A stretch of 63,000 bases of DNA, filler included, from Kipferlia bialata (Eukaryota): NCBI GenBank assembly GCA_003568945.1. It is 7 parts of 7 records of this genome, joined end to end, with 100 filler letters (N's around TTAATTAATTAA, not from the genome) between each part and the next. Parts side by side here need not be neighbours in the genome. Positions count along the whole stretch, not along the records: positions 35,212 to 46,957 come from BDIP01001189.1; 6 more parts are not named here. One strand, 5' to 3'. The stretch's first letter is position 1. Every line of letters begins with the position of its first letter. The position numbers and the translations under genes were made by a program. The notes beneath the pieces were generated by a model. That model was not told where the DNA came from, made no database searches, and saw only the letters and a list, made by a program, of their open reading frames with translations. Positions 45,358 through 46,918 of the stretch are shown here, piece after piece.

Positions 45358-46918
45358 GCAGTGTGCCCAGAGTGCTGGGGGACGGAGTCAGGCTCAGAGG
45401 TACGGTGGACGTTATATAGTCTCTCGGTACTATATGTATTAAGGTTCTCTTACCTATAGGTGATATCAACCTATGCTTCATGGGTGACCCAGGTGTGGCC
45501 AAGTCCCAGCTATTGAGATTCGTGGCAAATGTGGCACCTAGATGTGTCTATACCACAGGTACATCCATAGCAGTGTATACAGTGTATACATAGTATATAG
45601 TACTGTATCTATATGTTACAACAAACAAGTTTTCACTACATATATATATATGTGTGTGTATATATTCGTGGCCAACGTGGCACCTAGATGCGTCTATACC
45701 ACAGGTATATTCATATGGATATATACTACTACATATGTATGTGTGTATATATATATTCGTGGCCAACGTGGCACCTAGATGTCTGTACACGACAGGTATG
45801 CCCTACTATATATATATGTGTGTGATTATGTATATATATATATGTGTGTGTGTGTGTATAATACATTGTAACATATTTCGATATCTCTATTCATACATCC
45901 CCTGACCTATATACTACTTAGATATATGGTACTGACCCCCAGGCAAGGGTTCCTCGGGTGTCGGTCTCACTGCTGCTGTGGTCAGAGACCCAGTCACAAA
46001 GGTAGGAGTGTATATGGTGTATATTCATACATAGTGCGTGCAGAAGTATCATTCATATATGAATATACATACATATCCATTCCCTCACCCCAGGAGTTCA
46101 CTCTGGAGGGAGGTGCCCTGGTGCTGGCAGACACGGGTGGGTGGATGTGTGTACACTATGTATATATGTACATATATAGATAGAGAGTGATTTATATATA
46201 GATATATACACTATACGTTTATAGATACATGTAGTATTGATATTGGTGCCCTGGTGCTGGCAGACACGGGTGGGTGGATATATATGTGTGTATGGCACAT
46301 ATAAGTCATTGTATAATTTTAGTTATAGACTATGTATGGTATGTTAATGTTATATATATATATATGGCACCCTGTTGCTGGTTGAGACGGGCGGGTGGAT
46401 GTGTGTGGATACAGCGGTACAGCTATATTTTCTCTCTATATATATACGTTGAGGTGTCCCTGCTGTCGGATGCACTCTGAAGCCCACCGGAGGTATCTCT
46501 CTCTCTCTCTCTACATATATATATCCCCTCACCCCCAGGTATCTGTCTGGTGGATGAGCTGGACAAGATGGGCGACCAGGATAGGTATGGACGTCTACGT
46601 ACAACTATCCCATACTGTATATTTATAGAGACTACTCTATACTCTATTCTCTATTCTCAATATGTGATGGCCAACCAGGACAGGTATGGAATGTGTATAT
46701 ACTATAACAACATTACACACATATATATATGTATATATGTGTATATATCTCAGTAGAGCTGGACAAGATGGGCGACCAGGACAAGTAGGGAATATGTATG
46801 TGCTATATATTCAGATCTTAGTTGGGATAATTAGTTGGTATATATATCATTACTCCTCACCTCCAAGACTGCCATATACTCATGTGTAGGACTGCCATCT
46901 ACGAGGTCATGGAGCAGA
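45358..46918 (+). CDS. MCM7: DNA replication licensing factor MCM7, internal AAA+ fragment
   Basis: Spliced [110 protein letters not shown] and [11 protein letters not shown] are MCM7-type. Confidence 0.9.
45519..46790 (+). repeat. Exon echoes inside MCM7 introns
   Basis: [13 protein letters not shown]|GT at 45519 (exon), 45665 and 45756. [18 protein letters not shown] at about 46110 (exon), 46245 and decayed 46366. MGDQDR copies at about 46667 and 46756. Confidence 0.92.

What the first reader, a model, noticed from the sequence alone, without database searches (positions are those of the whole stretch)
45519..45800. Echoes in a conserved, normally single-copy housekeeping gene (MCM7)
Exon TTC GTG GCA AAT GTG GCA CCT AGA TGT GTC TAT ACC ACA G|GT; echo 1 has GCC AAC .. 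TGC; echo 2 has GCC AAC .. CTG TAC ACG. Both echoes share the C-ending codons against the exon. Because MCM7 is normally single copy, paralogue mixing is an unlikely source, and the phenomenon is not limited to variable surface genes. This is the cleanest test locus.
Basis: partly seen in the sequence, partly recalled or inferred. Interest (0 to 1): 0.7.

Follow-up and report, generated by a model that had tools for sequence, protein, structure and literature searches.

The report
Introns stacked with dead exon ends
In this free-living protist, many introns (including those of the DNA-replication gene MCM7) carry tandem dead copies of the neighbouring exon end with its splice site, and because these copies differ from the live exon mostly at silent positions they are likely leftovers of other working alleles captured by recombination.

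Summary
Observation confirmed. The last 41 nt of an MCM7 exon plus its GT donor recur twice in the intron (38/41 and 35/41 identical). This is not special to MCM7: 94 such 'echoes' lie in 46 of 108 hand-modelled introns. They come in donor-side and acceptor-side kinds, about 100 nt apart. A neighbouring protein matches Kipferlia bialata 100%. At another three-echo locus, an RNA-like contig splices from the first donor past all echoes, and a DNA contig holds one echo at full depth. The architecture matches amphioxus 'mirage' repeats, so it is a known kind. What differs: exon-versus-echo dN/dS is 0.23, below the 0.39-0.51 simulated for plain duplication followed by decay. GT/AG are kept while nearby intron bases diverge, and near-identical cores carry unrelated-looking intron flanks. 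The copies therefore likely diverged while still working, as alleles or homeologues, and were then stacked by recombination and died. The signal is strongest for donor echoes and overlaps the plain model in some subsets.

The parts
45358..45399 (+). MCM7 exon (first one present in the contig)
   Evidence: AG/GT bounded, in frame
45460..45558 (+). MCM7 exon with Walker A (GDPGVAKS); its last 41 nt are echoed
45559..45942 (+). 384-nt intron with two donor-side echoes
45664..45704 (+). echo 1: 38/41 identical, 3 synonymous changes, GT kept
45755..45795 (+). echo 2: 35/41 identical, 4 synonymous changes plus V>L, GT kept
45943..46001 (+). MCM7 exon ([12 protein letters not shown]), in frame with the first donor
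46094..46136 (+). MCM7 exon ([14 protein letters not shown])
46245..46269 (+). donor echo identical over 25 exon nt plus 10 intron nt, then a flank at control-level similarity
46366..46390 (+). decayed donor echo (4 amino-acid changes, GT>GC)
46539..46584 (+). MCM7 exon with Walker B ([10 protein letters not shown])
46666..46683 (+). short donor echo, GT kept; below the scan threshold, seen by repeat finder
46756..46784 (+). donor echo, GT kept
46890..46917 (+). AG plus start of the next MCM7 exon (TAIYEVMEQ) running into TA-rich sequence; probably an acceptor echo, with the true exon beyond the gap (inferred)
36802..37206 (-). 405-nt intron of another gene with three donor echoes, all skipped by an RNA-like contig (test locus)
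94..9954 (+). 27-exon membrane-protein gene model with 41 echoes in 21 of 26 introns
11967..16927 (-). 10-exon gene model with 27 echoes in 9 of 9 introns

Best explanation
The echoes are tandem copies of one exon end with its splice site and about 60 nt of adjoining intron, harmless because the outermost splice sites are used, and likely built from diverged working alleles (or homeologues) rather than from fresh self-copies. Shown: the geometry, the codon-level and splice-site constraint, and use of the first donor at one locus. Inferred route: a break in an exon is repaired by strand invasion into a homologue whose exon is about 90% alike but whose intron is not. Synthesis runs about 100 nt through the splice site, re-annealing fails, and the ends are joined. 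The donor allele's exon end is left in use and the resident one is stranded in the intron. Later unequal exchange or conversion between echo and live exon ends multiplies and refreshes the units. Copies spanning both splice sites would make a cassette exon and are purged. Stranded copies then decay neutrally.
For: Exon versus echo over 1002 codons: dS 0.313, dN 0.073, omega 0.232; mismatches by codon position 88/65/191. One echo per family, family bootstrap 0.155-0.348. Single-echo families 0.206 (0.11-0.32), and low in all three divergence bins. Same-chromatid copy plus neutral decay, run through the same aligner, gives means 0.39-0.51, lowest 0.309 of 96 runs; a fit needs the echo to have been coding for about 50-70% of its branch. 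GT/AG differ at 9-15% while donor +4..+8 differ at 35-46% and acceptor -14..-3 at 29-58%; echo site scores exceed all 2000 random-change runs. Core and flank divergence are uncoupled (rho -0.15, P 0.16); of 27 cores at most 4% different, 1 has a flank at least 90% alike. In MCM7 unit 1, 0 non-synonymous changes against 7/20 intron changes. A seven-copy family has 3 four-gamete-incompatible site pairs. Donor echoes precede acceptor echoes in 10 of 10 introns holding both; 1 of 48 donor-unit heads holds a branch-point/AG motif. 88 of 94 echo sites would give a stop or frameshift if used. An RNA-like contig joins 37207 to 36801 past three echoes. Aborted SDSA plus end joining makes tandem duplications of ~100 bp-10 kb in C. 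elegans (PMC8654963, section read). Metamonads lack NHEJ (PMC8516963, passages).
Against: No second allele was seen: DNA contigs show no variant letters in the 20 of 30 covered bins, so allelic diversity is inferred. Acceptor echoes alone give omega 0.376, family bootstrap 0.157-0.534. Without the largest gene: 0.288 (0.117-0.469). Two genes give 0.59 and 0.68. All of these overlap the plain model, and the overall bootstrap upper bound (0.348) touches the lowest simulated values. Simulations treat echoes as independent and assume equal neutral rates. TA slippage alone may explain fast flank divergence and inflate the splice-site test. Junction microhomology could not be separated from the alignment. 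Gene models are hand-made, with three boundaries adjusted to keep frame. Both runs are one sample, possibly the assembly's source.
Confidence: 0.55

Rival explanations
1. Ordinary mirage-type repeats: same-chromatid tandem duplications across one splice site, then neutral decay with occasional conversion from the live exon. The low omega is noise or a rate artefact.
For: Same architecture as amphioxus mirages. Echo-private changes have pN/pS 0.56 (0.36-1.03) against a neutral 0.75-0.86. 5 stops and 16 of 22 indels not a multiple of 3. Acceptor-only and non-largest-gene subsets fit. Flanks remain alignable in some families.
Against: Overall 0.232 lies below all 240 'sister' runs and all 96. Identical cores carry control-level flanks. 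GT/AG are retained far above neighbouring bases.
Confidence: 0.25
2. Assembly artefact: diverged haplotypes or strains written head to tail.
For: Draft assembly with gaps and poly-G/poly-C junctions. No listed contig spans a whole array, and 36963-37322 had no DNA cover. The MCM7 intron itself was not read-tested.
Against: A DNA contig of depth 428 (flanks 378-413) holds echo 3 joined to the inner intron with 0 differences, plus 19 nt of upstream intron, and no DNA joint skips a unit. 98% of 875 sampled words of 38600-46950 are in the run's contigs. 10 of 48 echoes lost GT and 7 of 46 lost AG, so these are not live alleles. Stacked bubble arms would give acceptor-then-donor order; 10 of 10 are the reverse (one by-eye exception near 48030). 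Up to 7 versions occur at one site.
Confidence: 0.06
3. The echoes are functional now: spare exon ends swapped in by DNA rearrangement, alternative exons, or splice-regulatory decoys.
For: Retained GT/AG and coding constraint. Site-to-site spacing is never under 62 nt among the 94.
Against: Donor echoes have no acceptor before them. Use would break the frame in 88 of 94. The RNA-like contig carries the exon version with 0 differences. MCM7 echo 1 encodes the same protein, so swapping gains nothing. By my reasoning (not simulated), two-copy swapping in a clone would not lower omega below about 0.4.
Confidence: 0.08
4. Echo cores come from paralogues or from cDNA.
For: The read-tested gene has a paralogous transcript and DNA contig (records 8 and 10).
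Against: MCM7 echoes encode the local MCM7 peptide almost exactly. Echoes keep GT or AG and above-control intron flank (0.49 vs 0.33; 0.47 vs 0.34) rather than exon-exon joins.
Confidence: 0.06

Closest known systems
Amphioxus 'mirage' minisatellites (Adh3, globins BflGb6/9, troponin C, PGBD5; PMC3087553 and PMC3902484 passages read; the original Adh3 paper was not held)
   Same: Tandem copies spanning an exon-intron boundary, 5' and 3' kinds, often keeping GT/AG, not disturbing splicing, units of similar size.
   Different: Here a unicellular metamonad, with dozens of sites in one window. Whole units are not 81-100% alike: only the exon part and splice dinucleotide are conserved. A protein-level constraint is measured, which the passages read do not report.
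Human F7 intron 7 37-bp minisatellite (PMC1557585, abstract)
   Same: True donor followed by silent copies; the most upstream donor is used.
   Different: One locus with identical pseudo-sites; no acceptor-side arrays or coding-type divergence.
Tandem duplications from aborted SDSA finished by polymerase-theta end joining (PMC8654963, abstract and one section)
   Same: Proposed route; the size range starts near 100 bp.
   Different: There the copies are described in repair mutants, median ~1 kb. Here a diverged homologue is inferred as template; junction signature and polymerase are untested.
Intron gain by duplication of an AG|GT segment (PMC3265369, abstract)
   Same: Local duplication remodels introns.
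   Different: Echoes lengthen existing introns (about 89 nt per echo) rather than create new ones; one candidate exception at 58142-58072.

Membership tests
Mirage repeats | Tandem copies spanning an exon-intron boundary, donor and acceptor kinds | tested here: met
   48 donor-side and 46 acceptor-side echoes
Mirage repeats | Normal splicing is unaffected | tested here: met
   One locus: RNA-like contig skips three echoes; outermost sites give open frames over 27 and 10 exons. Not tested by reads at MCM7.
Mirage repeats | Minisatellite-like units alike over their whole length (81-100% in BflGb6) | tested here: not met
   Intron flank at least 80% alike in 8 of 91 echoes
Mirage repeats | Length instability between haplotypes or cells | tested here: inconclusive
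   No DNA joint skipping a unit at one partly covered locus; contigs drop rare variants
Aborted-HR tandem duplications | Microhomology or templated inserts at the junction | not tested
   Ancestral junctions unknown; local alignment absorbs microhomology
Aborted-HR tandem duplications | Dependence on polymerase theta | not testable with these tools
   No genome held
Mutually exclusive duplicated exons | Each copy has both an acceptor and a donor | tested here: not met
   1 of 48 donor-unit heads has a branch-point/AG motif; 88 of 94 would break the frame
AG|GT duplication introns | The duplicated exon end supplies the new acceptor | tested here: not met
   Exon ends in AG for 21 of 28 echoed donors versus 66 of 78 others
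MCM7 | MCM P-loop sequence closest to MCM7 | tested here: met
   Pfam PF00493; eukaryotic MCM7 chains at 36-39 bits, other subunits 32.6 or less, one MCM7 at 30.6; archaeal MCM scores similarly; 32 aa only
MCM7 | Single copy in this genome | not testable with these tools
   No genome held

The most novel reading that the evidence does not exclude
Introns of this protist are a fossil archive of past alleles. Recombination between strongly diverged homologues repeatedly aborts at exon-intron boundaries in a lineage without NHEJ, and each event strands the displaced exon end in the intron. One genome would then record outcrossing or hybridisation, roughly 15-20% synonymous diversity and recombination hot regions. 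This process, not transposons, would be what sets intron length, and it could also explain mirages in highly polymorphic animals.
Probability: 0.4. Interest if true: 0.8.

Novelty: new variant of a known kind. Interest (0 to 1): 0.62.

Why it matters
The way mirage repeats arise is called unclear in the passages read. A genome with such repeats at many introns, whose copies keep a protein-level signature, makes the question testable in bulk. It would give indirect evidence of recombination between diverged genomes in a free-living fornicate. It implies a spliceosome that pairs sites across exons although ordinary introns are only about 80 nt. It also warns that gene prediction in this genome can pick dead exon ends.

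Tried and rejected
Reads on the MCM7 intron: not obtained, so linkage and splicing there stay open. No whole genome. No run is on record as RNA; X2 is a guess, though its contigs join across GT-AG introns. The uncovered DNA stretch 36963-37322 is no evidence either way. General C-ending bias: rejected. An age gradient along arrays: none (nearest copy less diverged in 9, more in 6, equal in 7 of 22). Recursive removal using the exon-end AG: no enrichment. cDNA origin: rejected. Homologue searches with the MCM exon (one Naegleria hit), a kelch gene (none) and the protein atlas (none) were uninformative. Dropped rows: 7 of 101 scan hits (6 more than 20 nt from a splice site, 1 low-complexity). 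The scan missed short echoes such as 46666. Paper searches showed no description of this feature in Kipferlia or another protist; I saw listings only, except for the papers named. PMC5874029 has 0 occurrences of 'tandem' or 'duplicat' in its main text (passages only, supplements not opened). Gao and Lynch 2009 and the Adh3 mirage paper were not held and may contain related analyses.

Full report
Observation. The 41 nt ending the MCM exon 45460-45558 recur at 45664-45704 and 45755-45795, each followed by GT, with 3 and 6 mismatches; the next best match in the window is 24/41. Seven of the nine differences from the exon are synonymous; the other two make one V>L codon. The exon is MCM P-loop, closest to MCM7 among eukaryotic structures. 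The next echo-bearing MCM introns repeat the pattern (46245, 46366; 46666, 46756). Only five exons are present, between a poly-G/poly-C junction and a gap.

Organism. A neighbouring exon matches a protein named Kipferlia bialata at 100%, a free-living fornicate with 124,912 reported GT-AG introns (PMC5874029, passages). That protein's contig is 11,746 nt, the length of 35212-46957, so the linker-separated segments are probably separate contigs. Echoes occur in all five segments in which I modelled genes.

Census. I built ten gene models by hand using the first donor and last acceptor; 27, 10, 28 and 33 exons read in frame, after three boundary adjustments. The models were chosen partly for being echo-rich and partly as echo-poor controls, so the fraction is not a genome estimate. 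Aligning exon ends to the adjacent 108 introns gave 101 hits against 10 in 2100 shuffles; 94 were kept (48 donor-side, 46 acceptor-side, 56 families, 46 introns). Echo-free introns have a median of 78.5 nt, and length rises about 89 nt per echo. Site-to-site spacing is 62-240 nt, median 101.5. Intronic parts have medians of 63 and 66 nt. Density varies by gene: 21 of 26 and 9 of 9 introns against 5 of 33 and 2 of 27, and echo-bearing introns are richer in TA/AT.

Is it real? One DNA run holds 98% of 875 sampled words of 38600-46950. At a three-echo intron (36802-37206, minus strand), a DNA contig of depth 428, like its flanks, carries the third echo joined to the inner intron with no differences. 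No DNA joint skips a unit, but the middle of the array had no cover. Both runs are one sample and may be the assembly's source. Sequence logic also opposes stacked haplotypes: donor echoes precede acceptor echoes in 10 of 10 mixed introns, and 17 of 94 echoes have lost GT or AG.

Splicing. An RNA-like contig joins 37207 to 36801 with GT-AG ends and no differences from the exon, skipping all three echoes. Use of an inner site would give a stop or frameshift in 88 of 94 cases. Donor echoes lack an upstream acceptor (1 of 48 heads has the motif). Inference: sites are paired across the exon, or the first donor wins as in human F7. True acceptors have a branch-point-like motif close to AG in 74 of 104 introns, resembling the fused branch point and acceptor described for diplomonads (PMC6679479, passages).

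The unusual part. Exon versus echo gives omega 0.232 (family bootstrap 0.155-0.348; single-echo families 0.206). If a copy were made from the same chromatid and then decayed, with the exon under full constraint, simulations give 0.39-0.51 (lowest 0.309 of 96). The data fit an echo that was coding for about half to 70% of its history. GT and AG differ at 9-15%, near the non-synonymous level, while adjacent intron bases differ at 29-58% at most positions. Cores that are nearly identical have flanks close to control similarity (0.64 vs 0.565). Changes private to one echo are closer to neutral (0.56, interval 0.36-1.03), as expected once a copy is dead. Against: acceptor echoes (0.376), the set without the largest gene (0.288) and two genes (0.59, 0.68) overlap the plain model. 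MCM7 alone (0.24) rests on 50 codons. TA slippage may speed flank divergence. No second allele was seen.

Mechanism. Shown: one-splice-site tandem units, outermost-site use at one locus, and the constraint pattern. Inferred: aborted homologous repair on a diverged homologue, followed by end joining, strands the resident exon end; unequal exchange then multiplies units (3 incompatible site pairs in a seven-copy family; donor core and head lengths are negatively correlated, rho -0.34, P 0.018). The route is borrowed from C. elegans, and the reported absence of NHEJ in metamonads is only compatible with it. Hybrid or polyploid homeologues would serve as well as alleles.

Comparison. It works like a mirage. 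It fails the whole-unit similarity feature and adds a coding signature, which my nine paper searches did not show for mirages or any protist; the original mirage paper could not be read. Verdict: real, new variant of a known kind, interest 0.62.

Noticed in passing
45261-45346; also about 16965-17017 and 38525-38574: A poly-G run abuts a poly-C run. At 45261-45346 this joins the MCM7 fragment back to back with an opposite-strand gene, probably a misjoin of two poly-C acceptor tracts.
   Followed up: no
58142-58072 (minus strand): A 71-nt helicase intron begins with a diverged copy of the next exon's first 30 nt, whose GT is the modelled donor: a candidate intron born or replaced by duplication.
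   Followed up: partly
48030-48075: An acceptor echo fused to a donor echo through look-alike exon ends forms a 24-26-nt pseudo-exon with an in-frame stop; the one acceptor-then-donor case seen (by eye).
   Followed up: no
5342-5428 and echo 5491-5551: The exon has CAG|GC where its echo has GAG|GT, and uses either a GC donor or a GT 6 nt further on: a possible donor shift.
   Followed up: no
9684-9970: Acceptor echoes of a last exon include the stop codon and part of the 3' untranslated region.
   Followed up: no
11778, 17018, 23252, 35112, 46958, 58803: N runs around a TTAATTAATTAA linker, probably joining unrelated contigs, so genes across them need not be neighbours.
   Followed up: partly
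about 41800-45230 (minus strand): SPATA20/YyaL gene whose next-best listed hits are bacterial or unnamed metagenomic proteins at 45-56%; possible lateral transfer, no tree built.
   Followed up: no
37222-37512: Contigs of a paralogue of the read-tested gene appear in both runs; RNA also places this exon's start at 37472, not at my modelled 37524.
   Followed up: partly
51076-52050 (minus); 61343-62500 (plus): Intronless kelch-repeat gene and a long exon with weak Ig-like similarity.
   Followed up: no
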